From assembly GCA_965231005.1 (NCBI GenBank), contig OZ246405.1:103204-167203 (forward strand): 64,000 nt of DNA. The letters are read 5' to 3'. The translations under genes and the position numbers were made by a program. Source of the stretch: an uncultured Gammaproteobacteria bacterium. GTDB taxonomy: Bacteria; Patescibacteriota; Patescibacteriia; Magasanikbacterales; UBA922. The notes beneath the pieces were generated by a model that was not told the origin of the DNA, did no database searches, and saw only the letters and a list, made by a program, of their open reading frames with translations. This document shows, piece by piece, positions 3,746 through 59,253 of this stretch (position 1 is its first letter; each line of letters begins with the position of its first letter).

Positions 3746-4696
3746 ATGAAGCCGACACTTTTTGAAGAACTTCTTGCGCTCGGACGATTTCTGGAAGGCG
3801 AGCTTGGCAAGATCCCAAAGGTCCTGCTGATGACTGGCTCTGGCGAGAACGCAATCGGAGAAGCACTCGAAGGTCCGGAGAGCCTGAGATTCCAAGACAT
3901 ACCTGCCATGCAACGCATTCTGGAGGGCAAGCCCCCTCCCAAAGGGCATGGAAGGCGCCTTTTGAAGGGCAAACTTGGAGGAGAAGAAATTGTCGTTTCG
4001 CAAGGGCGATTGCACGGCTACGGTGGATTCAAAGGTCCTGAGATTGTGCTGCTTCAGCAAGCACTCATGCTCATGGGCGTGGAAATCATCTGCCTCAGCA
4101 ATGCTGCAGGTGGTGCAAGTCATCAGTACAAGAAGGGAGATCTGGCCCTGATCCAAGATCTGTGCCTGCTCTTTTGCAACAATCCACTCACAGGTGGAAA
4201 CGACAAACGACTTGGACCGCGAAATCCTCCTGTCGCACCCATGTTCTCCCCGAACCTGAGAGCATATGTTCATCGAATGGCTAAGCAGGCTGGAATTAAT
4301 CTGTCTCCTCACGAAGCAGATTACTTTCCAACATTCGGTCCCCAGTACGACACCCCCATGGATGTAAGGCTCGCAAACGGATGCGGTGCAACAGCAATCG
4401 GGATGTCGACTGTGCCAGCTGCAATTGCTGCTGCACACATGGGAGTACTCCGAATCGGATTCACCAAGATCACGAACATGTGCCCTGGTTACGAACCCAA
4501 GGGTCAGAACGACGAAGACAAGGAACTCGACCACAGTGGCGTGACTGACACCGGAGAAAGGATCACCGAAGAAAAACTCCTCCCGCTTCTCATCGCCATC
4601 CTTCCTGGACTGGTCGAAGCAGCTGGAAACGAGCTGATGATTCCTCGGTCACGACCCTACGCACGACTTCGCGCAGAAGGCTTCCCTGGCTACTAG
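3746..4696 (+). CDS. Purine nucleoside phosphorylase (PNP/MTAP family), encoded in a GC-rich island
   Basis: Motifs LLMTGSGEN, GRLHGYGGF and SNAAGG. Strong RBS AAGGAGGACACT before the ATG. GC content far above the flanks. Confidence 0.7.
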   Translation: MKPTLFEELLALGRFLEGELGKIPKVLLMTGSGENAIGEALEGPESLRFQDIPAMQRILEGKPPPKGHGRRLLKGKLGGEEIVVSQGRLHGYGGFKGPEIVLLQQALMLMGVEIICLSNAAGGASHQYKKGDLALIQDLCLLFCNNPLTGGNDKRLGPRNPPVAPMFSPNLRAYVHRMAKQAGINLSPHEADYFPTFGPQYDTPMDVRLANGCGATAIGMSTVPAAIAAAHMGVLRIGFTKITNMCPGYEPKGQNDEDKELDHSGVTDTGERITEEKLLPLLIAILPGLVEAAGNELMIPRSRPYARLRAEGFPGY

Positions 4697-24966: not shown

Positions 24967-25041
24967 ATCCTGAAAAATAAAAAAACCAGCCAGGTATAGC
25001 CGATTCTTTTGTGTCCTCTGAAAGGAAATTGATCTACATTA

Positions 25042-25419
25042 TTAAAAATCTTCTTTAAAATCTTTCTCAATTGACAGTTCTTCACCTTTTTTAATATCTC
25101 TCAAAGCAATATCTGCTTCTTGTTCAAAATCTGGATAAACATTTGGATCGCTAAATCGATTTACATGTCTTTCAGGGTCTGGATAATAATAAATTACACC
25201 ATTTCTTTTGTGAGTAAAATGTTTTTCTTCAGATGGTAATTGGTTGTATTCTTCTTCGGTCAATGTTTTGAGATTGTATTTAATCACTATCTCTCCTTTC
25301 CTAAAATCTCTAAGAGCAAAAACACCAAGACCATCATTAAATTGTCCAATAGTAGACTTTTTTATTTCAATATCGTGGTAAATATTTTTCATATATAATA
25401 ATACTATATGATTAAACAT
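25042..25419 (-). CDS. SET-domain protein (putative protein-lysine methyltransferase)
   Basis: GLGVFA...KGEIV, NRFSDPNV (NHSCxPN-like) and GEELSIEKDF motifs. Confidence 0.5.
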   Translation of the reverse strand: MFNHIVLLYMKNIYHDIEIKKSTIGQFNDGLGVFALRDFRKGEIVIKYNLKTLTEEEYNQLPSEEKHFTHKRNGVIYYYPDPERHVNRFSDPNVYPDFEQEADIALRDIKKGEELSIEKDFKEDF

Positions 25420-25635
25420 GCTCTGTCTAGAGAAAACTTGAAAAAATCATTTGGCTAAAACGATTCATCATTGAAAACCCTTTTTTGGATGTGTTCAAAA
25501 CTAAACCATCACAAACACCAAACAAAAAACCACCTCTCTTGAGATGGACTTTTGTGTGCGCCGAATGTGAAAGTCCTCCAAGATCTTTCTCGACGCGTAA
25601 TTGTTTCTTCTGGCCAGCGCGACGATCGCGAATGA

Positions 25636-26661
25636 CTAGAAAATCCCCATGAAAGCAGCGGTACAGAACGCAAGCCACAGCACGATCTTGATCACACTCT
25701 CTGTCCGGGTGAGCGTCCAGTCCGTGATCATGAAAACCACGGCGAACACTGTTGACCCAGCCAGGCAGTACAGAATCCACTGCGAGTGCACCCACTCCAT
25801 CTGGATACCGCCCATCCATGCCACCGGAACACCGAGACAGATCAGGATATCAAATGAGTTGGATGCAAACGCGTTTGCGATGGCACCATCCGCATCACCA
25901 CGCTTGGCAGCAAGTACCGAGATCAGCGCGTCCGGCAGTGATGTCGCAGCCGCCAAGATCGTGACGCCAAGCACCGCCTCGGACATGCCATAGTGATGCG
26001 CGAGCTCGAGCCCGGCCTCGACCATGAAGTGACATCCGACACCGATGAGAGCGATGGTGACGAGCGCAAATCCGATGTGCTTGATGACGCTCCCCTCAAC
26101 CTTCTCGTCGCTGCTGTAATTCCAGCTTTGGACGATCAGACCGATGATGTACACCACGTACATGCCGATCATCACCCAGCCTTCCCAGCCGCTCAAGAGG
26201 TGGTAGCCGTCGCCGTTCGCTTTGCCGAAGTAGAGCGCACCGATGAAGAACGCCACGACCAGCAGATACATGACACCGTCGCGCTTGACCACGCTGTGGT
26301 GCACGGGCAGGCCACCGGTCGCGAATGACGAGAGCGCCGGAATCACCAGGATGTTGAAGAGGGCAGAGCCAGCGATGGCACCTGCACCTGCCTCGAACGA
26401 TCCAGCCATCAGCGCTGCGACGACAGTGAAGAACTCCGGCGAACTGCTGCTCACCGCGTCCAAGGTCGCGCCACGCACGCTCGGTGCGATGTTGAAACGC
26501 TTCCCAATCCAGTCGGTCTGCTCGCTAAGCAGTTCGCTGACTTTCCAGATTAGGATGGTGCAGACTAACACCGTTGCAATTGAAATGAACATGTGACCTC
26601 CCAGGCCGTTCGTCCGAAGAAAATATTCCCGTCGGGTCAAAAAAGTCAAAATATTCAACAA
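25636..26661 (-). CDS. CaCA-family cation/Ca2+ exchanger (YrbG-like), GC-rich island
   Basis: Two alpha-repeat regions (GATLDAVSSSSPEF.. and GVTILAAATSLPDALISV). GC content far above the flanks. Probable start MFISIATV after a GGGAGGTCAC RBS. Confidence 0.75.
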   Translation of the reverse strand: MLNILTFLTRREYFLRTNGLGGHMFISIATVLVCTILIWKVSELLSEQTDWIGKRFNIAPSVRGATLDAVSSSSPEFFTVVAALMAGSFEAGAGAIAGSALFNILVIPALSSFATGGLPVHHSVVKRDGVMYLLVVAFFIGALYFGKANGDGYHLLSGWEGWVMIGMYVVYIIGLIVQSWNYSSDEKVEGSVIKHIGFALVTIALIGVGCHFMVEAGLELAHHYGMSEAVLGVTILAAATSLPDALISVLAAKRGDADGAIANAFASNSFDILICLGVPVAWMGGIQMEWVHSQWILYCLAGSTVFAVVFMITDWTLTRTESVIKIVLWLAFCTAAFMGIF

Positions 26662-26671
26662 CTTAGAATCG

Positions 26672-26713
26672 ACGGAAACAGCTCAGTATAGCATAAAAAT
26701 CCCTCTTTGTCAA
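26672..26713 (-). promoter_or_regulatory. Promoter of the CaCA gene (TTGACA-17-TATACT)
   Basis: Consensus hexamers on the minus strand with 17-bp spacing. Confidence 0.55.
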
Positions 26714-26752
26714 GGGATCATTATCTATATTTTGCTAATATAAGCGCTTTTT

Positions 26753-26846
26753 TGCTCCTCCGGCAGGATTCGAACCTGCGACATCAACGTTAACCCCGAT
26801 AGCATTCGCTACGCTCATGTCAATCGGGACACAGCAGCGTGGCTCT
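26753..26846 (-). pseudogene. Degenerate partial copy of tRNA-Asn (3' two-thirds) with roughly 40-nt insertion
   Basis: About 80% identity to the tRNA-Asn acceptor-3', T-arm and anticodon-3' region (GCAGGTTCGAATCCTGCCGGAGGAGCA). It shares GCCACGCTG but cannot form an acceptor stem. Confidence 0.4.
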
Positions 26847-26852
26847 ATTTTG

Positions 26853-26926
26853 CTCCCCCGGTAGGACTCGAACCTACAAGCATCCACGTTAACAGCGTGG
26901 CGTTCTACCAATTGAACTACAGGGGA
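26853..26926 (-). tRNA. tRNA-Asn (anticodon GTT)
   Basis: Cloverleaf: acceptor UCCCCUG/CGGGGGA, D-stem GTTC/GAAC, anticodon stem CCACG/CGTGG with loop CUGUUAA, T-loop GGTTCGAGTCC, discriminator G. CCA is not encoded. Confidence 0.85.
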
Positions 26927-27220
26927 ATATGGAAATAAAAAATGCCGCTTTCGCGGGCATATGTAGATAACAACAAATACCCGCTATTGCGAATTATTAT
27001 TGTTGTTATTGTTTACAATTTTCATTTTCATATACATAGTATACCAGAAAACGCAGCCTATGTCAAGTTATCTTTATCCTTTTCCAAGGATGCAGGATCA
27101 ATTCCATACTTTTTCATAGCATCTTCCTGCGCCTTTTTCATCTTCATTTCAATCCCCTTGTCCATAGCTTTTCCAAAAAGCCAGCCTGTAATTTTTCTTA
27201 TAATTGCTTGTAAAGACATA

Positions 27221-28204
27221 TTAACGAATTCCAATTATTTCAATAACATCCTCCATAGTTTCTTCTGCAATTTCTGCAGCCTTGTCAGCACCATGAATCA
27301 AAATATCTGCAATTTCATTATGATTACTCATAAGTTCTTTTCTTCTCTCACGAAAATCTGCAAAATAATTTCCAATTGCTGCACTTACTTCTTTTTTCAA
27401 ATCACCGTATCGAATGTCGCCTTTCTTTTCTGCAGTAACAAATTTCTTATGCATTTTTTTATCACCAAATTGTTCAAGAAGAAGTAACAAATTTTCAACA
27501 CCTGGTGCAGCACCACCACCTTCTGTTGCTGTGACAGCTTTTTTCATTTTCTTTTCAATAACATTTGGCTCATCTGCAAGTTCAATGACATGACCAAGTC
27601 CTAAACTTTTACTCATTTTCTTTTCTGGATCTAATAAACTTTTTACACGAGCTGTTTTTGTAAGAAGTGGTTTTGCTTCTGGAAAATATTTTTTGTATTT
27701 ATTGTTAAACCACCGTCCAATTTTTCTTGTTAATTCTACATGTTGTACTTGATCTTCTCCAACAGGAACATGTGTTCCTTTGTACAATAAAATATCTGCT
27801 GCTTGAAGAATTGGATATGTAAATAATCCTGCATTAATATTTTTTTTCTGTGCACTTGATTTATCTTTAAACTGTGTCATTCTATCTAACTCTGCAATCG
27901 GTGTCACCGTATTAAAAATCCAAGAAAGTTCTGTGCACTGGGGCACATGAGACTGAACCCAAAATGTTGTTTTCTTTGGATCAATTCCTGCTGCAATTAA
28001 CTCTGCTGCTGTACGGGTAATTTGATCATGTCTCTCTTTTGCAGTTTGATCTCCAGTAAGTGAATGAAGATCTGCAATAAAAATATACATGTCATACTTT
28101 CCACTTTCTTGAAGTTCAACCCAATTTTTTACTGCACCCAAATAATTTCCTAGATGGAGATTTCCTGTTGGTTGTATACCAGATACGATAATTTGTTTTG
28201 CCAT
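27221..28204 (-). CDS. trpS: Tryptophanyl-tRNA synthetase
   Basis: HLGNYLGA (HIGH-class) and KMSKS motifs. 327 aa. Confidence 0.9.
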   Translation of the reverse strand: MAKQIIVSGIQPTGNLHLGNYLGAVKNWVELQESGKYDMYIFIADLHSLTGDQTAKERHDQITRTAAELIAAGIDPKKTTFWVQSHVPQCTELSWIFNTVTPIAELDRMTQFKDKSSAQKKNINAGLFTYPILQAADILLYKGTHVPVGEDQVQHVELTRKIGRWFNNKYKKYFPEAKPLLTKTARVKSLLDPEKKMSKSLGLGHVIELADEPNVIEKKMKKAVTATEGGGAAPGVENLLLLLEQFGDKKMHKKFVTAEKKGDIRYGDLKKEVSAAIGNYFADFRERRKELMSNHNEIADILIHGADKAAEIAEETMEDVIEIIGIR

Positions 28205-28251
28205 ATAATTTTTTAATCTCCTATAGTGTAACTAATAAATGAATGATAATC

Positions 28252-28283
28252 AAGAAAAAGAGCTTGCCACGAAAGTAGCAAGC
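28252..28283 (-). terminator. Rho-independent terminator after the small-peptide gene
   Basis: GCTTGC tactttcgtg GCAAGC followed by a T-run on the minus strand. Confidence 0.65.
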
Positions 28284-28302
28284 CCATCTCCTTTTTCTCC
28301 CT

Positions 28303-28446
28303 TTACCACAGATTTACCCCTGGTTGAAGCAATACCTTTGTCGTTGATCCCTTGGACTCTGATTCAATCTGAATCTTCATGACCGACAATGCACTGAAAA
28401 TCAACCACAGAAGAATCAACAACCTATGCAGTGTTTTCTTCTTCAT
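28303..28446 (-). CDS. 47-aa peptide with N-terminal signal/TM segment (MKKKTLHRLLILLWLIFSALSVMKIQIESESKGSTTKVLLQPGVNLW)
   Basis: Strong RBS AGGAGGTGAC 0 nt after the upstream stop and 5 nt before the ATG. Below the ORF-track cutoff. Shares a GC-rich island with the upstream ligase. Confidence 0.4.
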   Translation of the reverse strand: MKKKTLHRLLILLWLIFSALSVMKIQIESESKGSTTKVLLQPGVNLW

Positions 28447-28454
28447 GTCACCTC

Positions 28455-29213
28455 CTATGCAACAAGAGCTTGACTATCAAACCTGGCAACCTCCCAAACG
28501 AACTCTGCCCAATCAAGGACTGTTTCGATGTGCTTGGGAGTACCGAGCACGCGAAGCTCAGTCGTACCGAGAACAGTATTGCGGACAAACTCGTATCCCT
28601 GGTCGTCTGCGTGCTCAAGAAAATGATTCTCGTCACGAAAGATAATGGGCGGCACTTCTTGCGGAGCCATGCGTTCGTACAGCTGCAGACGCTTGCCATT
28701 GGAACTATCACCCATCTTCCTAAAGCGCGGCAGTCTTCTCTTGAGACGGTTACTCACCTGGACCTGATGGGCCAGATCTCTACAACCATAGTGGAAGTGA
28801 GTTCCAGCAACGCGGCACGCAGCACGGATCTTCCACTCTGGCATACTTGCTGCCATGGCAAGATACTTTGGATCTGGATAGATGTCATACGGCATATCTT
28901 CAGGAGCCGCCTCCATAGGAACGAGTAGCAGGCCCAGATACACAGCAACAGCTTCTCCTTGCTTCTTTGCTTTGTACAAACCAGCTCGCATTTCACTGAT
29001 ATTGGCGTATGGCTTTATCGGCCGAAACTCTACCTGACAACGCGAGAGTTCAAATGTCCACTCACCAGGAGCAAGCCTTGTCATGATCCTGAGAAACTCA
29101 ACTGCCTTCGGTGTTGGCAAGCCTGTTCTTGGATCTACAAGAAAGAACTCAAGTTCTGGACCAATGTACCCCACCCACTCTTGTTTGAAATGAACCTCGT
29201 TTGCAAAACCCAT
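28455..29213 (-). CDS. GCS2/YbdK-like carboxylate-amine ligase, short form (252 aa)
   Basis: GPELEFFLVD resembles the GxExE(F/Y)xLVD N-terminal motif. THFHYGC matches HVHVGC of YbdK. The C-terminal region is about 120 aa shorter than YbdK. GC-rich. Confidence 0.45.
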   Translation of the reverse strand: MGFANEVHFKQEWVGYIGPELEFFLVDPRTGLPTPKAVEFLRIMTRLAPGEWTFELSRCQVEFRPIKPYANISEMRAGLYKAKKQGEAVAVYLGLLLVPMEAAPEDMPYDIYPDPKYLAMAASMPEWKIRAACRVAGTHFHYGCRDLAHQVQVSNRLKRRLPRFRKMGDSSNGKRLQLYERMAPQEVPPIIFRDENHFLEHADDQGYEFVRNTVLGTTELRVLGTPKHIETVLDWAEFVWEVARFDSQALVA

Positions 29214-29580
29214 GATAACCTCCTTTCAGCACAGTTTTATGCTGGTCAATACCTGCACGCGCATTAACCAAAATAAAAAACTTCTCGTAATACCTGAGAA
29301 GTGTTTGAAGAACATAAACATCAGGTATTACAGATTGCGTAGTACCCACCACCAATTTTTAGAAATAATTACACGTGCATGCATATTATTTAGAAAATAT
29401 TTTTTAGGAATTCTATGAATATTACCACCAGGTCACCTAAATTTTTCACAACCAATATGACCAATAGTCCTCTTGTTATATTTTTGGAATCAATAACACC
29501 ATCCTCCTCTTCCAAACTGAATACTTCCTCCTGTCCTGGCAATAAAATTACATTTTGTCTCTTTTTCATACGCCATAAAC

Positions 29581-29613
29581 TTAAATAAAAACCACGGAGC
29601 GTACTCCGTGGAT
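29581..29613 (-). terminator. Rho-independent terminator after pspC-domain gene
   Basis: CCACGGAG cgta CTCCGTGG followed by TTTTTATTT on the minus strand. Confidence 0.7.
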
Positions 29614-29746
29614 GTTTATGTGTATGTGTTTTAACCAAACATTAACGGAGCACTAGTTTAAGTACCTTGCTCCAACGATGCGTTGTTAATATTTGATTTC
29701 TCATATGTATATACTATAGCCATTTAAACTATTGTTGTCAAACGAA

Positions 29747-29971
29747 CTATACAACCTCCCCATCTATTACAGATGGATCACCTTTTTCTGGAATAAGCCA
29801 GTATGCAATGAGGTAGAGAATGACAAGAGGAAAAAATCCTGTCAGTAATATGCCAAGCGCAAAAATGATTCGAACGACATTTGGATCGACTTTGAAATAT
29901 TCTGCGATCCCACCACAAACTCCTCCAATGAGTTTGTGTTTTTTTGATCTATATAGTTTTTTCATAAACAA
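29747..29971 (-). CDS. PspC-domain membrane protein
   Basis: KLIGGVCGGIAEYF motif; 74 aa. Confidence 0.7.
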   Translation of the reverse strand: MFMKKLYRSKKHKLIGGVCGGIAEYFKVDPNVVRIIFALGILLTGFFPLVILYLIAYWLIPEKGDPSVIDGEVV

Positions 29972-29981
29972 ATAAATTATA

Positions 29982-30518
29982 TTATTCTCTTTCTAAAAAT
30001 AAACGAAGCTTTGTTAACACTGCTATGGTCCATCCATTTTTTATTTCACCATCAACTATCATCTGCTCAATTTTTTCAATTGGAAATGTGTGGACTTCAA
30101 TTAGCTCTCCTTGATCTTGGCTTGTTTCTCCGAACTCAAGCCCTCTAGCTAGCAATATTGGTGTACTTGCACTATTAATCCCTGGATCAATTGTTAATTT
30201 CCCAAGTTCTATAACCTCTTTTGCAAAAATACCAGCTTCTTCTTTTAATTCACGTTTTCCAGCATCAATAGTACTTTCATCATCATTTCGATATCCATGC
30301 GGGAAATTCCATGTCCAATCTTTAATCGGATAGCGCCACTCTTTTAGAATAACAAGTTTTCCATCATCAGTCATTGGAACAATAAGTGGTGCACGCATAT
30401 CTCCCCTATCAATGAATGCATAGTCTGCAACTGATCCGTCTTTTCGCTCAACTGTATCAACAAAAAGCTTAACCCAATTATTTTCAAATTCTTTTCTTTG
30501 CTTAAGCTTCTTCATCAT
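29982..30518 (-). CDS. NUDIX hydrolase
   Basis: Nudix box GKRELKEEAGI. Confidence 0.75.
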   Translation of the reverse strand: MMKKLKQRKEFENNWVKLFVDTVERKDGSVADYAFIDRGDMRAPLIVPMTDDGKLVILKEWRYPIKDWTWNFPHGYRNDDESTIDAGKRELKEEAGIFAKEVIELGKLTIDPGINSASTPILLARGLEFGETSQDQGELIEVHTFPIEKIEQMIVDGEIKNGWTIAVLTKLRLFLERE

Positions 30519-30529
30519 ACAAAGAAATT

Positions 30530-32503
30530 TTATACTTCGATTACGACCGGCAATACCATTGGCCGCTTCTGTGTTTTAGTATAAATGAATTGACCAATTT
30601 TGTCTCGGACATCATTTTTAAACTGATTTGTGTCTACCCAATTTTTTGGATCACTTTCTGTTACCATTTTTTTCACTTTGTGACGGATGTCTTCGATCAG
30701 TTTTTTATTATCTTTCAAAAAGACAAAACCACGAGAAATAATATCTGGATTGTGAACCAATTTTCCAGTCTTAGCACGAACTGTTGCAATCACCACAACC
30801 ATACCATCTTCTGCAAGAACTTGACGATCTCTAAGAACAATATGCTGTGTGTCACTTACACCAAGTCCATCAACAAACACATAATCACTGACTGCTTTTT
30901 GTTTTAGTACTTCCAATCCTTTCTTGCTCAGTTCAATAACTGTTCCATTGTCTGGCACAACAATATTTTCTTTTGCAAATCCATGTTTTACAGCAAGTGT
31001 TTCTGCTTCTTTCAAAAAGAAATGGTTTGCATAGACTGGAACATAATAATCTGGTTTTACCTGATCAAGCATATCTGTAATGTCTGTTCGTGTTGCATGT
31101 CCACTAATATGAACATCCATAACATCACCGTGAATCACATTTTCACACTGTCGATAAATATTATCTTTTAAACGCTGGATAGTTCTTTCATTCCCTGGAA
31201 TGATGGAAGAGGAAAATACCACAGTATCATGCTTTCTGAGCTGTACTGTACGATGTCGTCCGCTTGCAATTCTATTGAGAACTGCATTTTCTTCTCCTTG
31301 CGCACCAGTACAAATGATAACCACTTTATTCTCTGGATATTTATCTACTTGCTTTACATCAATAAGAATTCCTTTTGGCAATTTTACATAGCCAAGCTCT
31401 TTTGCAATTTCAATATTCATTTTCATGCTATACCCATCGAGGGCAACAAGTTTCCCAAGTTTTTTTGCAGCTTCAATCACCCATTTTACTCGTTCAACTT
31501 GTGATGAAAATGTTGCAATCACAATTCTTCCAGGTGCGTCAGCAAGAATGTTCTGAAGATTCTCGTACATTTCCTTGTATGTCCCATGACGCTTTTCATT
31601 GAGAGAACCCAAACTTTCAAGCATGAGAATACTTGGGCGCTGTTTAATTTTTGCCAATTGATCGTACCGCAAATGAGTTTTTCCTTTTTCATCTCTTTCC
31701 ATAGTCCAATCACCAGGATGAATCACAGATCCTGCAGGTGTTTCTAACACAACACCCATAGAATCCATAATTGAGTGTTCAACTTGAAAAAACTTCGCTG
31801 TAAATTTTCCAAGTTTTACTTTATCTTTTAATTTTTTTACTGTAATTATTTTCAGCTTACTTGCTGTTCCCTTTTTATAATCTTCTTGCTTATGTTTTAT
31901 AAGTGCAAGTGTCAACGGACGAGCAACAATAGGTGGATTTCCTAATTTTTCTACAACAATAGGGGCGCCACCAATGTGGTCAAGATGACCATGCGTGAAA
32001 ATAACACCGCGAATATTTTTTTCTTTTCCTTCTAAGTACTTTGTATTCGGAATAATGTAATCAATTCCTGGTTGATCCTCTTCTGGAAACTGAATTCCAA
32101 TATCAATAATAACAATGTCATTTTCATATTCGAAAATGGTCATGTTGCGACCAACTTCTTCACACCCACCAATTGGAATAATACGCAATGTTCCTTTCTG
32201 AATTTTAGGGACTGCTTTTCTTTTTCCATTGTGTGCTTCACGAATATGAACACTTTTCCTTCTAGGAGGAGGGCTACTATTTCGCTTAAATTTTTTATGT
32301 CCCTTTTTTTGAGACTTAGCACGAGAAACTCCTTTCTTTGTACGAGCTTCTCCTTTTTTTGATGGACCTGTGTGTTTTCTTTGTTGCTCTTGTGAGCTTC
32401 CCTCAGAAGTACGTGTAGGCGTTCGTTTCGTCGTACTTCGTCTTGTTTTACGAGCACCACTGTTACGTCGAACCGCAGGTCCTTTTGGACGAGGTTTCAT
32501 CAT
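30530..32503 (-). CDS. rnj: Ribonuclease J (beta-CASP metallo-beta-lactamase) with roughly 100-aa basic S/T/K/R-rich N-terminal extension
   Basis: FTHGHLDHIGG motif, beta-CASP and C-terminal domain. The N-terminus MMKPRPKGPAVRRNSGARKTRR... is low-complexity basic. Confidence 0.85.
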   Translation of the reverse strand: MMKPRPKGPAVRRNSGARKTRRSTTKRTPTRTSEGSSQEQQRKHTGPSKKGEARTKKGVSRAKSQKKGHKKFKRNSSPPPRRKSVHIREAHNGKRKAVPKIQKGTLRIIPIGGCEEVGRNMTIFEYENDIVIIDIGIQFPEEDQPGIDYIIPNTKYLEGKEKNIRGVIFTHGHLDHIGGAPIVVEKLGNPPIVARPLTLALIKHKQEDYKKGTASKLKIITVKKLKDKVKLGKFTAKFFQVEHSIMDSMGVVLETPAGSVIHPGDWTMERDEKGKTHLRYDQLAKIKQRPSILMLESLGSLNEKRHGTYKEMYENLQNILADAPGRIVIATFSSQVERVKWVIEAAKKLGKLVALDGYSMKMNIEIAKELGYVKLPKGILIDVKQVDKYPENKVVIICTGAQGEENAVLNRIASGRHRTVQLRKHDTVVFSSSIIPGNERTIQRLKDNIYRQCENVIHGDVMDVHISGHATRTDITDMLDQVKPDYYVPVYANHFFLKEAETLAVKHGFAKENIVVPDNGTVIELSKKGLEVLKQKAVSDYVFVDGLGVSDTQHIVLRDRQVLAEDGMVVVIATVRAKTGKLVHNPDIISRGFVFLKDNKKLIEDIRHKVKKMVTESDPKNWVDTNQFKNDVRDKIGQFIYTKTQKRPMVLPVVIEV

Positions 32504-58416: not shown

Positions 58417-59253
58417 TTACAAATCTCGAACCTTTCGGATGAAATCAGCACACCACGGCCAGTGACATTCGTAGAGATACAAGTCGAACGCTTTCTCTTC
58501 TCCGACTGGAGGTGATTCAACAAGATCAAAGCGAACGTGGACATCTCCGAGTTGGTGGAATAGCAGTTCAGGAATGCTTGTGGCACCATGTTCTGTAGCA
58601 ACCACGACTCGAACCCACTGCGCATCGGGAAGTGCTTGAGCAAGCGCTTTCATTCCTTTTGCACGAGGAGTCATGATGACATCACAGGATTCAGCCAGCC
58701 GATCCAACTTTTTATCTTTTGCCCAAGCAAAGGAACGCATTCTTCCTTGCTTGTCACCGCGTGTACCGTCTGGGAACAGTTGAATGCAGATTTTACTGCC
58801 TGGGAAACGTTGAACGCCTGAACGAATCGCAGGGACTGCCTGCGTAGCATCACCTCGATCGACAAGGACACCCCCAAGCATTTTTACAGCCCAACCAAAT
58901 GGGCCCCTTTTCAGCTCGATCTTGCCAATAGGGATAAACAAATGCTTTTTGAAGAGTTTGTCCACTGCAGCAGCGTATTCTGGAAGTTCATGTGCAAATG
59001 GATGTGGGCCCCACACCACGACTGGCCGATCTGGATCTAAGCCCATCAAATTGACCTCGAGGATTACCTTGCGGCCAAAAGCGATGCGTAAGACAGGAGC
59101 GATCCATGGGCCCCACTGATGTGCAAACCAATTGGCATGTTTTGCCGAGAGGAACACACCAGATAGGAGCGCAAGCAACACAACAAGGCTGCTAATCATG
59201 AATGCGACTAATACACCGAAAAGAACCCGAAAAGCTCTTAAAAACGCCCTCAT
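58417..59253 (-). CDS. Membrane-anchored lysophospholipid acyltransferase-like protein (PlsC/LPLAT family), GC-rich (about 50%)
   Basis: FPDGTRGD matches acyltransferase motif III (FPEGTR). The N-terminal TM is present; the HxxxxD motif is not clearly conserved. Confidence 0.45.
   Translation of the reverse strand: MRAFLRAFRVLFGVLVAFMISSLVVLLALLSGVFLSAKHANWFAHQWGPWIAPVLRIAFGRKVILEVNLMGLDPDRPVVVWGPHPFAHELPEYAAAVDKLFKKHLFIPIGKIELKRGPFGWAVKMLGGVLVDRGDATQAVPAIRSGVQRFPGSKICIQLFPDGTRGDKQGRMRSFAWAKDKKLDRLAESCDVIMTPRAKGMKALAQALPDAQWVRVVVATEHGATSIPELLFHQLGDVHVRFDLVESPPVGEEKAFDLYLYECHWPWCADFIRKVRDL

What the first reader, a model, noticed from the sequence alone, without database searches (positions are those of the whole stretch)
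28252..29213. GC-rich two-gene cassette: short GCS2/YbdK-like carboxylate-amine ligase coupled to a 47-aa signal-peptide-bearing peptide
A minus-strand unit is compositionally distinct from its flanks. A 252-aa protein has GPELEFFLVD and THFHYGC motifs that align with the ATP-dependent carboxylate-amine ligase family (E. coli YbdK: GIELEMQVVN and HVHVGC). It lacks roughly 120 C-terminal residues. Its TAG stop is followed directly by AGGAGGTGAC-ATG of a 47-aa ORF (28303-28446) with a hydrophobic N-terminus (MKKKTLHRLLILLWLIFSALSV) and a terminator. A ligase plus small exported peptide resembles peptide-modification or bacteriocin-like systems. Alternatively the peptide is a membrane micro-protein partner. 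About 530 bp of gene-free, hairpin-containing DNA lies upstream.
Basis: partly seen in the sequence, partly recalled or inferred. Interest (0 to 1): 0.6.

Follow-up and report, generated by a model that had tools for sequence, protein, structure and literature searches.

The report
Tryptophan-controlled compact GCS2-type ligase gene
A short enzyme gene of the glutamate-cysteine-ligase type lies next to the tryptophan-tRNA synthetase gene and is probably switched on by tryptophan shortage through a three-tryptophan leader peptide, while the 47-residue "peptide" beside it is not a conserved partner.

Summary
The sequence observations hold. There is a 252-aa GCS2/YbdK-like ORF (28455-29213, minus strand) that is richer in G+C than its flanks. 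A 47-aa hydrophobic ORF with an AGGAGG site follows it, then a terminator.

The short length is not a truncation: about 200 cluster representatives of ~255 aa form a compact subfamily, mostly in Patescibacteria. All catalytic motifs are kept, the AF2 model has pLDDT 95, and the fold is YbdK-like.

The 47-aa ORF has no counterpart in 65 other loci, including a syntenic relative (L017) with only an 82-nt spacer there. The recurrent partners are amidohydrolases (AstE/AspA-like, GATase1/C26, GGCT).

The family is tied to tryptophan. Within 5 kb of the ligase gene, TrpRS occurs in 24 of 66 loci and tRNA-Trp in 13. Directly upstream are T-box leaders with an invariant UGG loop (24 loci), a Tyr-Trp-Phe leader-peptide attenuator (12) or a TrpR-family gene (4).

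In the window, the "gene-free" upstream DNA encodes MHARVIISKNWWWVLRNL (29384-29328), followed by mutually exclusive antiterminator and terminator hairpins.

Best reading: this is a ligase induced by tryptophan starvation, with unknown substrate. The peptide-modification idea is not supported.

The parts
29713..29741 (-). Promoter-like site (TTGACA, 17 nt, TATAGT; 11 of 12 matches) just after the PspC stop codon
   Evidence: This is a consensus match only.
29585..29708 (-). Structured ~124-nt RNA ending in an intrinsic terminator (29611-29592). It contains a 20-codon ORF, MRNQILTTHRWSKVLKLVLR, with one Trp codon, and has alternative 1:2, 2:3 and 3:4 pairings. It could be the PspC terminator, a first attenuator, or both.
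   Evidence: MFE is -37.1 kcal/mol, z = -4.72, with 0 of 200 shuffles folding as well. Alternative helices are -20.9, -20.0 and -14.0 kcal/mol, and constraint folding switches between them. Terminator scan is; inverted repeat I2 is.
29328..29384 (-). Leader-peptide ORF MHARVIISKNWWWVLRNL, with three consecutive UGG codons at 29354-29346 and its stop codon at 29330-29328
   Evidence: Read and verified. This is the only TGGTGGTGG on either strand of the 64-kb window.
29287..29331 (-). Antiterminator hairpin I4. It has 11 perfect base pairs (arms 29331-29321 and 29297-29287), and its 5' arm begins at the leader stop codon.
   Evidence: Energy is -16.2 kcal/mol, z = -4.96, 0 of 200 shuffles. It forms when a ribosome is modelled as stalled at the UGG codons.
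29270..29306 (-). Terminator-like hairpin I8 (core stem 29303-29296 with 29286-29280) followed by UUUUUUAUUUU. It cannot form together with I4.
   Evidence: Energy is -7.9 kcal/mol, z = -2.25. It forms only when a ribosome is modelled at the leader stop codon.
28455..29224 (-). Compact GCS2/YbdK-type carboxylate-amine ligase, 252 aa, with its AGGAGG site (29224-29219) and ATG at 29213
28303..28456 (-). 47-aa ORF (MKKKTLHRLLILLWLIFSALSV...NLW) with its AGGAGG site (28456-28451). It is specific to this lineage and has no detectable homologs.
28250..28285 (-). Intrinsic terminator closing the ligase transcription unit
   Evidence: 11 pairs, 6 G-C, T-run. Inverted repeat I1.
27221..28204 (-). Tryptophan-tRNA ligase (TrpRS), the recurrent neighbour of this ligase family
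   Evidence: TIGR00233 trpS scores 306.9 bits against a cutoff of 176.75. TrpRS lies within 5 kb of the ligase in 24 of 66 loci.

Best explanation
**What it is (shown).** The 252-aa gene encodes a functional-looking member of a compact (~255 aa) subfamily of GCS2/YbdK-type ATP-dependent carboxylate-amine ligases. The subfamily is found mainly in Patescibacteria.

**Chemistry (inferred from the family).** The enzyme phosphorylates a carboxylate, most likely the gamma-carboxylate of glutamate. An amine then attacks to form an amide bond.

**Tryptophan link across the family (shown).**
- The gene is linked to TrpRS and tRNA-Trp.
- It is preceded by T-box leaders with a UGG loop, Tyr-Trp-Phe leader-peptide attenuators, or TrpR-family repressor genes.
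- It is usually followed by an amidohydrolase (AstE/AspA-like, GGCT or GATase1/C26).

**Control in the window (inferred from sequence and folding models).**
- An 18-codon leader peptide with three tandem Trp codons precedes the ligase.
- When charged tRNA-Trp is scarce, the ribosome stalls at WWW, the 11-bp hairpin I4 forms, and transcription reads through into the ligase.
- When Trp is plentiful, the ribosome reaches the stop codon inside I4. That blocks I4, so the I8 hairpin plus U-run terminates transcription.

**Physiological role (speculative).** The ligase may be one part of a tryptophan-scavenging pathway that uses gamma-glutamyl or N-acyl conjugates. This copy has lost, or never had, the adjacent hydrolase.

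**The 47-aa ORF.** It is a lineage-specific passenger. It may be a real small membrane protein, but it is not a conserved partner or substrate of the ligase.
For: **Ligase identity**
- Pfam GCS2 is above its cutoff, and NCBIfam YbdK/GCL models give partial hits.
- There are 197 representatives, nearly all 245-290 aa.
- Invariant E20, E22, E55, E62, E219 and R221, and near-invariant H139, H141, R175 and R211, are all kept in the window protein.
- The AF2 model has pLDDT 95.1. Foldseek top hits are YbdK 1r8g and 1tt4 (query TM-score 0.74-0.75), then plant GCL, then glutamine synthetases.
- The GhExE signature and arginine fingers are described in PMC2588565.

**Family context within 5 kb, 66 non-redundant loci**
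- AstE 28, TrpRS 24, GATase1 16, GGCT 4, TrpR 4, tryptophan 2,3-dioxygenase 3, PLP decarboxylase 3, chorismate mutase-methyltransferase fusion 9.
- tRNA-Trp(CCA) lies beside the ligase in 13 loci, about one third of all tRNA genes found.

**T-box leaders**
- Rfam RF00230 matches the full model with E = 8e-9 to 1e-5 and the canonical GGUGGUACC sequence.
- 23 of 31 predicted pairs show compensatory changes.
- U-G-G-G is invariant in the Stem I internal loop.
- All 24 profile hits lie directly upstream of the ligase and nowhere else.
- The bulge base N is C or U in 22 of 22 cases, matching the G73 discriminator of the co-located tRNA-Trp genes.

**Other family leaders**
- A Tyr-Trp-Phe attenuator occurs in 12 type-B loci.

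**The window**
- WWW leader, I4 and I8.
- The syntenic relative L017 has a TrpR-family gene in the same interval.
- L049 has a WW mini-ORF 149 nt upstream of its ligase.
Against: - The I8 terminator hairpin is weak: 7 bp, a 9-nt loop, -7.9 kcal/mol, and 8 of 200 shuffles fold as well.
- The WWW leader is a single instance. No close relative is available to test its conservation, because the nearest ligase is only 43% identical.
- The L049 leader did not show a clean structural switch in simple folding.
- TGGTGGTGG would occur about 0.13 times by chance in 64 kb, so its significance rests on position and context.
- The window ligase is the most divergent member: lowest profile score, longest tree branch, and a unique 8-residue deletion of the conserved FxxNPRxCW segment.
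- No partner hydrolase occurs anywhere in the 64 kb, so this copy could be decaying.
- Reading UGG as the T-box specifier is my interpretation of the alignment, not a tool output.
- The substrate is unknown. Co-expressing a ligase and a hydrolase for the same bond would be a futile cycle.
Confidence: 0.6

Rival explanations
1. The ligase modifies the co-transcribed 47-aa exported peptide, forming a peptide-modification, bacteriocin-like or Pup-like ligase and substrate pair.
For: - The small ORF starts 8 nt after the ligase stop codon and has a perfect AGGAGG site, in a genome that rarely uses one.
- It ends 18 nt before the terminator.
- Its N-terminus is of a rare signal-peptide-like type, shared by 2 of 513 small ORFs.
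- Its GC3 (0.54) resembles that of the ligase.
Against: - No homolog of the peptide exists in 65 other loci.
- Only one unrelated membrane-like ORF lies downstream of a ligase elsewhere.
- The syntenic locus L017 has no room for it.
- It is not in a 15-billion-protein collection, and gene callers chose the opposite strand.
- There is no transporter, protease or immunity gene nearby.
- The peptide ends in Trp, not the Glu or Gln needed for Pup-like ligation.
- Earlier comparative work found no small conserved ORFs beside GCS2-sized ligases (PMC2588565).
Confidence: 0.03
2. The 47-aa ORF is a genuine, lineage-specific small membrane or secreted protein. It is co-transcribed with the ligase, for example as a membrane anchor or an unrelated passenger acquired with it, but it is not a substrate.
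For: Start signals, position and hydrophobic N-terminus are as in the first rival. Both genes carry AGGAGG sites that look foreign to this genome.
Against: There is no conservation, no family hit and no gene call. The GC1/GC2 pattern (0.35/0.31) is atypical for coding sequence, and 47 codons are too few to judge.
Confidence: 0.3
3. The ligase is a decaying remnant. It would be an orphan copy that lost its hydrolase partner and its T-box or TrpR control, and is drifting towards a pseudogene. On this view the WWW mini-ORF and hairpins are coincidental.
For: - A unique 8-residue deletion in a segment conserved as far as YbdK, seen in 1 of 53 sequences.
- The lowest family score and the longest branch.
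- No partner hydrolase in the window.
- Only 35% identity to the syntenic L017 ligase, while neighbouring genes are 55-72% identical.
Against: - The 252-codon ORF is intact and keeps all invariant catalytic residues.
- The predicted fold is very confident.
- It has its own strong start site and terminator.
- A Trp-codon leader lies in exactly the interval where the syntenic relative has TrpR and other family members have Trp T-boxes.
Confidence: 0.15

Closest known systems
E. coli YbdK and the GCS2 family (Pfam PF04107; PDB 1r8g, 1tt4)
   Same: It shares the GhExE metal and ATP motif, the HxH motif, the arginine fingers and the GT-E-R strand. It is the best fold match, with query TM-score of about 0.75.
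   Different: The compact subfamily lacks the ~110-residue C-terminal helical region of YbdK. It scores far below the NCBIfam YbdK cutoffs (41 against 176 bits). It sits in a tryptophan-linked context that is not known for YbdK.
The GCS2-sized 'new carboxylate-amine ligase' family of Iyer, Burroughs and Aravind 2008 (PMC2588565)
   Same: These are ligases of the same superfamily, paired with a GATase-like thiol peptidase or an AIG2/GGCT cyclotransferase. They have no small Pup-like ORF nearby, and were predicted to make small peptide-like metabolites.
   Different: Those proteins are full GCS2 size and come from Proteobacteria and Firmicutes. No tryptophan link, T-box or AstE partner was reported for them. 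Direct homology to the present subfamily was not tested here.
The leader-peptide attenuator of the E. coli trp operon (trpL). This comparison rests on textbook knowledge.
   Same: It has a short leader ORF with tandem Trp codons. An antiterminator competes with a terminator followed by a U-run, and the ribosome's position decides which forms.
   Different: Here there are three Trp codons and a three-segment design, in which free RNA folds into the antiterminator. The terminator is weak, there is no sequence homology (no Rfam Trp_leader hit), and the regulated gene is a ligase, not a biosynthesis operon.
T-box leaders (Rfam RF00230), including those with a shortened Stem I
   Same: The family's upstream elements match the full T-box model. 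They have the GGUGGNACC antiterminator bulge and a codon-like loop.
   Different: They score below the Rfam gathering threshold (40-53 bits against 93) and have a very short Stem I. They control a GCS2-type ligase instead of an aaRS, biosynthesis or transporter gene. The window itself has no T-box.
The PafA/Pup system and ligases that modify ribosomal peptides
   Same: PafA belongs to the same ligase superfamily and acts on a small protein.
   Different: There is no conserved small ORF, no C-terminal Glu or Gln, and no accessory genes.

Membership tests
GCS2 / YbdK carboxylate-amine ligases (PF04107) | Score above Pfam's gathering threshold | tested here: met
   32.3 bits against 21, over residues 18-168.
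GCS2 / YbdK carboxylate-amine ligases (PF04107) | GhExE motif, second acidic pair, HxH motif, two arginine fingers and the GT-E-R strand | tested here: met
   G18-P-E20-L-E22, E55, E62, H139, H141, R175, R211, E219 and R221 are all present. The motif definition comes from PMC2588565.
GCS2 / YbdK carboxylate-amine ligases (PF04107) | Glutamine-synthetase-like fold matching solved YbdK or GCL structures | tested here: met
   pLDDT 95.1. Matches to 1r8g and 1tt4 have query TM-score 0.74-0.75 and E of about 4e-8.
GCS2 / YbdK carboxylate-amine ligases (PF04107) | Full-length architecture with the C-terminal helical region, and NCBIfam YbdK-family cutoffs | tested here: not met
   The profile covers YbdK residues 6-262 of 372. 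TIGR02050 scores 41 bits against a cutoff of 176. It is therefore a compact sister subfamily, not a YbdK equivalog.
GCS2 / YbdK carboxylate-amine ligases (PF04107) | ATP-dependent amide-forming activity | not testable with these tools
   This needs an enzyme assay.
Ligase plus precursor-peptide system (peptide modification, or Pup-like) | A small ORF conserved next to the ligase in homologous loci | tested here: not met
   No homolog in 65 loci. The syntenic locus L017 has an 82-nt spacer.
Ligase plus precursor-peptide system (peptide modification, or Pup-like) | Accessory transporter, protease or immunity genes, or a C-terminal Glu or Gln on the small protein | tested here: not met
   The neighbours are PspC, NUDIX and TrpRS. 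The peptide ends in ...NLW.
Ribosome-mediated trp-type attenuator | A short leader ORF with tandem Trp codons upstream of the regulated gene | tested here: met
   MHARVIISKNWWWVLRNL lies 115 nt upstream of the ligase. It holds the only TGGTGGTGG in the window.
Ribosome-mediated trp-type attenuator | Mutually exclusive antiterminator and terminator with a U-run, with the outcome set by ribosome position | tested here: met
   I4 against I8. Constraint folding gives I4 on a stall at UGG and I8 when the ribosome is at the stop codon. The terminator is weak.
Ribosome-mediated trp-type attenuator | Conservation in relatives and a demonstrated response to tryptophan | tested here: inconclusive
   No close relative exists. 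Analogous devices do occur: a WW leader in L049, and Tyr-Trp-Phe attenuators in 12 loci. The response itself cannot be tested here.
T-box leader (RF00230), in the window | A match to the T-box model upstream of the gene | tested here: not met
   No hit at E <= 1 in 25000-31000. No gathering-level hit in the window. No hit with the family profile. The T-box is present in 24 other loci.

The most novel reading that the evidence does not exclude
The compact GCS2-type ligase and its amidohydrolase partners form a previously unrecognised tryptophan-starvation module in Patescibacteria and related small-genome bacteria. Four unrelated tryptophan sensors have converged on it: a UGG T-box, a Tyr-Trp-Phe attenuator, a WWW attenuator and a TrpR-family repressor. 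It is physically linked to tRNA-Trp and TrpRS. On this reading its substrate or product contains tryptophan or Trp-tRNA. Examples would be a gamma-glutamyl-cycle-like scavenging route, or ligation that uses Trp-tRNA as the amine donor. That would show how bacteria without tryptophan synthesis cope with shortage.
Probability: 0.45. Interest if true: 0.8.

Novelty: new variant of a known kind. Interest (0 to 1): 0.6.

Why it matters
Ultra-small bacteria generally cannot make tryptophan, the costliest amino acid, and how they handle shortage is unknown.

T-box, TrpR and leader-peptide control almost always marks genes that restore the supply of the cognate charged tRNA. A GCS2-type ligase under all of these controls, beside tRNA-Trp and TrpRS, points to an undescribed enzymatic step in tryptophan supply.

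It also gives directly testable material. The candidate substrates, a compact 252-aa enzyme and several leader RNAs can all be tested in vitro.

For the original claim, the analysis shows that the eye-catching ligase and peptide pair is not a conserved system.

Tried and rejected
**Searches that gave little**
- The word-index homolog search found only 4 relatives. The exhaustive search was needed.
A 12-sequence alignment worked.

**Tests for remnants in the window (all negative)**
- No remnant of an AstE-like gene in the 250-bp spacer, and none anywhere in the window.
- No remnant of a TrpR-family gene in the upstream region.
- No trp-operator-like palindrome such as those in L017.
- Rfam gave nothing for the upstream region except a sub-threshold terminator-like hit.

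**Tests for a partner peptide (all negative)**
- tblastn of the 47-aa ORF against all loci, a scan for membrane-like ORFs downstream of the ligase, and clustering of 900 small ORFs.
- The clustering instead exposed the T-box and the Tyr-Trp-Phe leaders.

**Weaker or unresolved points**
- The L049 WW leader did not show a clean structural switch in MFE folding.
- Recent horizontal transfer of a 'cassette' was considered. The ligase is at the same position in syntenic L017, and family-wide its GC3 exceeds that of neighbours in 41 of 58 loci, while the AstE gene next to it is usually lower. The odd composition is therefore partly a trait of the gene family, and its cause is unresolved.

**Literature and a search I skipped**
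- Searches linking carboxylate-amine ligases or T-boxes to Patescibacteria/CPR, TrpRS or GCS2 found nothing relevant.
- I ran no further search on the 47-aa ORF. The exact sequence is absent from the collection, and a 47-residue hydrophobic query could not reach significance.
Full report
**1. Checking the observation**

The window holds a 252-aa ORF at 28455-29213 (minus strand). A 47-aa ORF follows at 28303-28446.

The ligase TAG stop overlaps an AGGAGG. Four bases later comes the ATG of the small ORF. An 11-bp hairpin with a T-run (28285-28260) follows the small ORF by 18 nt.

The ligase gene has 50% G+C and GC3 of 0.49. The native genes around it (RNase J, NUDIX, PspC, TrpRS) have GC3 of 0.16-0.29.

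**2. The protein**

Pfam GCS2 matches above threshold, but only over the N-terminal two thirds. NCBIfam YbdK and GCL models give partial, sub-cutoff hits.

The word-index search found 4 relatives. An exhaustive phmmer search found 197 cluster representatives, nearly all 245-290 aa. The short length is therefore a subfamily property.

In a 53-sequence alignment, E20, E22, E55, E62, E219 and R221 are invariant. H139, H141, R175 and R211 are nearly so. The window protein keeps all of them.

A family profile aligns with YbdK residues 6-262 of 372. It matches the GhExE, HxH and GT-E-R motifs, which PMC2588565 describes as the catalytic core.

AlphaFold2 gives pLDDT 95.1. Foldseek's best matches are YbdK (1r8g and 1tt4, query TM-score about 0.75), plant GCL, and then glutamine synthetases.

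The window protein is the most divergent member. It has the lowest profile score and the longest tree branch. It alone, of 53 sequences, lacks an 8-residue FxxNPRxCW segment that aligns with the ...HWDIRP element of YbdK.

**3. The 47-aa ORF**

Some evidence favours a real gene:
- It has a perfect AGGAGG site in a genome where 54 of 59 long ORFs have no Shine-Dalgarno core.
- It lies between the ligase stop and the terminator.
- Its N-terminus (basic residues, then a hydrophobic stretch) is shared by only 2 of 513 small ORFs in the window.

The evidence against a functional pairing with the ligase is stronger:
- It matches no family.
- The exact sequence is absent from a 15-billion-protein collection, and the gene callers took an opposite-strand ORF that overlaps the terminator.
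- tblastn finds nothing in the other loci.
- Only 1 of 65 other loci has a membrane-like small ORF after the ligase. That one is unrelated, has a TTG start and has no ribosome-binding site.
- Clustering 900 small ORFs around all ligase genes yields no family that includes it.

The decisive comparison is L017. It is syntenic with the window: SecG is 61% identical, the SBP 56%, RNase J 72%, PspC 57% and TrpRS 72%. There the ligase is followed by 82 nt containing a terminator, and then TrpRS.

**4. What accompanies the ligase elsewhere**

A scan of one genome per species gave 66 loci. Most are Patescibacteria, and some MAGs are labelled Gammaproteobacteria.

Clustering the neighbours and identifying them with Pfam gives these counts within 5 kb:
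- AstE/AspA-like deacylase: 28 loci, usually immediately downstream.
- TrpRS: 24 loci. All those tested pass the trpS equivalog cutoff.
- GATase1/peptidase C26: 16 loci.
- A longer GCS2 paralog: 15 loci.
- A chorismate mutase-methyltransferase fusion: 9 loci.
- Another ligase-like protein: 8 loci.
- GGCT: 4 loci.
- Trp-repressor family: 4 loci, directly upstream.
- Tryptophan 2,3-dioxygenase: 3 loci.
- PLP decarboxylase: 3 loci.

tRNA-Trp(CCA) lies beside the ligase, or beside the ligase and AstE pair, in 13 loci. That is about a third of all tRNA genes in these loci. The arrangements vary and several lineages are represented.

Pairing of GCS2-sized ligases with GATase-like peptidases or AIG2/GGCT, with no small ORFs nearby, was noted in 2008 (PMC2588565). 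I found no report of the tryptophan link.

**5. Regulatory elements upstream of the ligase in the family**

The small-ORF clustering produced 'peptides' conserved on both strands. That pattern marks conserved RNA, not protein.

Aligned, the element shows 31 pairs, 23 of them with compensatory changes. It matches the Rfam T-box model over its full length: L054 at 52.7 bits (E = 8e-9), L057 at 44.3 bits and L052 at 40.3 bits. It carries the canonical UAAGGUGGUACCACG sequence. These scores are below Rfam's gathering score of 93.

A profile of the element hits 24 loci. Every hit is directly upstream of the ligase on the same strand, with none elsewhere.

The short Stem I carries a 3'-side loop, R-Y-U-G-G, followed by G. 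The U-G-G-G is invariant in the 16 aligned sequences. I read this as a UGG (Trp) specifier followed by the usual purine.

An independent check agrees. The bulge base N of UGGN is C or U in 22 of 22 cases, which pairs with the G73 discriminator of the co-located tRNA-Trp genes.

Twelve type-B loci instead have a mini-ORF with an invariant UAU-UGG-UUU (Tyr-Trp-Phe). It reads into a segment that pairs with the 5' half of a strong terminator. This is a textbook ribosome-mediated attenuator, and it has no Rfam match.

Together with the four TrpR-family loci, about 42 of 66 loci have a tryptophan-sensing device immediately upstream of the ligase.

**6. The window's upstream 'gene-free' DNA**

On the minus strand, 29384-29328 encodes MHARVIISKNWWWVLRNL. 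Its three UGG codons form the only TGGTGGTGG on either strand of the 64 kb.

The stop codon lies in the 5' arm of an 11-bp perfect hairpin, I4 (-16.2 kcal/mol, z = -4.96). The 3' arm of I4 overlaps a second hairpin, I8 (-7.9 kcal/mol), which is followed by UUUUUUAUUUU. The ligase ribosome-binding site lies about 45 nt further on.

Constraint folding gives two states:
- With a ribosome footprint at the UGG codons, I4 forms. This is the read-through state.
- With a footprint at the stop codon, I4 is blocked and I8 forms. This is the termination state.

Further upstream is a promoter-like site (11 of 12 matches). After it comes a 124-nt structured RNA (z = -4.7) with a 20-codon ORF holding one Trp codon. 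It has 1:2, 2:3 and 3:4 alternative pairings and ends in the 29611-29592 terminator. This could be a first attenuator, or simply the PspC terminator.

In syntenic L017 the same interval encodes a TrpR-family protein. L049 has a WW mini-ORF, MCKANLSNNSNWWQALRLLS, 149 nt upstream of its ligase. It lies behind a promoter-like site and before a hairpin with a U6 run, but simple folding shows no clean switch there.

**7. Synthesis**

Shown:
- The gene is a compact GCS2-type ligase with intact catalytic motifs.
- The family is linked to TrpRS and tRNA-Trp, and lies behind T-box, Tyr-Trp-Phe and TrpR-family devices.
- The 47-aa ORF is not conserved.

Inferred:
- The window copy is induced by tryptophan limitation through the WWW leader.
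- The enzyme forms a gamma-glutamyl-type amide.

Speculative:
- The ligase and the hydrolases form a scavenging cycle for tryptophan conjugates, or the ligase uses Trp-tRNA.

Caveats:
- I8 is a weak terminator.
- The leader is a single instance.
- This ligase copy is divergent and has no adjacent partner.
- The substrate is unknown.

**8. Composition**

High G+C is partly a family trait. Ligase GC3 exceeds that of its neighbours in 41 of 58 loci (0.62 against 0.37 in L017). The adjacent AstE gene is usually lower.

The ligase occupies the same position in L017 but is only 35% identical. Vertical descent with fast divergence, and in-place replacement by a foreign copy, both remain possible.

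**9. Verdict**

The ligase assignment is supported, and the ligase and peptide system is not. The real interest lies in the tryptophan-responsive control and context of a compact ligase subfamily, which I could not find described in the searchable literature.

Noticed in passing
window 25636-26661 (-), with tRNA-Asn at 26852-26926 (-): A Na+/Ca2+ exchanger gene has 57-60% G+C and GC3 of 0.74 in a genome of about 35% G+C. It lies about 190 bp from a tRNA-Asn gene, so it is probably a separate horizontally acquired island at a tRNA.
   Followed up: partly
window 25042-25419 (-); also L006, L048, L063, L069: A small SET-domain protein recurs within 5 kb of the ligase in 5 loci, including the window.
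   Followed up: partly
L003, L036, L042, L044-L046, L050-L054, L057, L058, L060-L065, L067, L069 and others, 2-536 nt upstream of the ligase: These loci carry divergent T-box leaders with a very short Stem I and an invariant UGG loop. They score only 40-53 bits against Rfam's gathering score of 93, so standard annotation misses them.
   Followed up: yes
L009, L012, L015, L020, L024, L027, L030, L033, L035, L037, L039, L041, 50-235 nt upstream of the ligase: A conserved leader-peptide attenuator has an invariant Tyr-Trp-Phe (UAUUGGUUU) and a terminator, CCUCUUCCNCGGAAGAGG followed by a U-run. It has no Rfam family.
   Followed up: partly
L040, L052, L054: Two TrpRS genes lie near the ligase. 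One paralog carries a four-cysteine motif (...C...C...GCVxCK...). Both score above the trpS cutoff.
   Followed up: partly
58 family loci, for example L071, L060, L062, L017: The ligase gene has higher GC3 than its neighbours in 41 of 58 loci, by up to 0.3. The AstE-like gene immediately downstream is usually below the local mean. This is an unexplained bias specific to the gene.
   Followed up: partly
L017 5470-5503: Tandem palindromes resembling the E. coli trp operator (GTACTAATGTACTAGTACACTAGTAC) overlap the promoter-like region of the TrpR-family gene upstream of the ligase. None occurs in the window.
   Followed up: partly
window 28239-28382 (+): A 47-aa ORF on the opposite strand was called as a gene in public annotations. 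It overlaps the ligase terminator hairpin and is probably spurious.
   Followed up: partly
window 3746-4696 (+) and 58417-59253 (-): Besides the ligase, these are the only two long ORFs in the window with a perfect AGGAGG upstream, in a genome that otherwise lacks Shine-Dalgarno sites. I did not check whether they are also foreign.
   Followed up: no
L016, L017, L021, L036, L043, L044, L046, L051, L062, L071 (record titles): These MAGs are labelled Gammaproteobacteria or Francisellaceae. They carry T-box leaders and an RNase J / SecG / PspC gene order shared with the window, so the taxonomic labels may be unreliable.
   Followed up: no
L023 6842-6929, L029 5584-5670, L032 822-908: tRNA-Leu(UAA) lies immediately downstream of the ligase in the three related loci where a TrpR-family gene precedes it, or where the contig starts at the ligase.
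   Followed up: no
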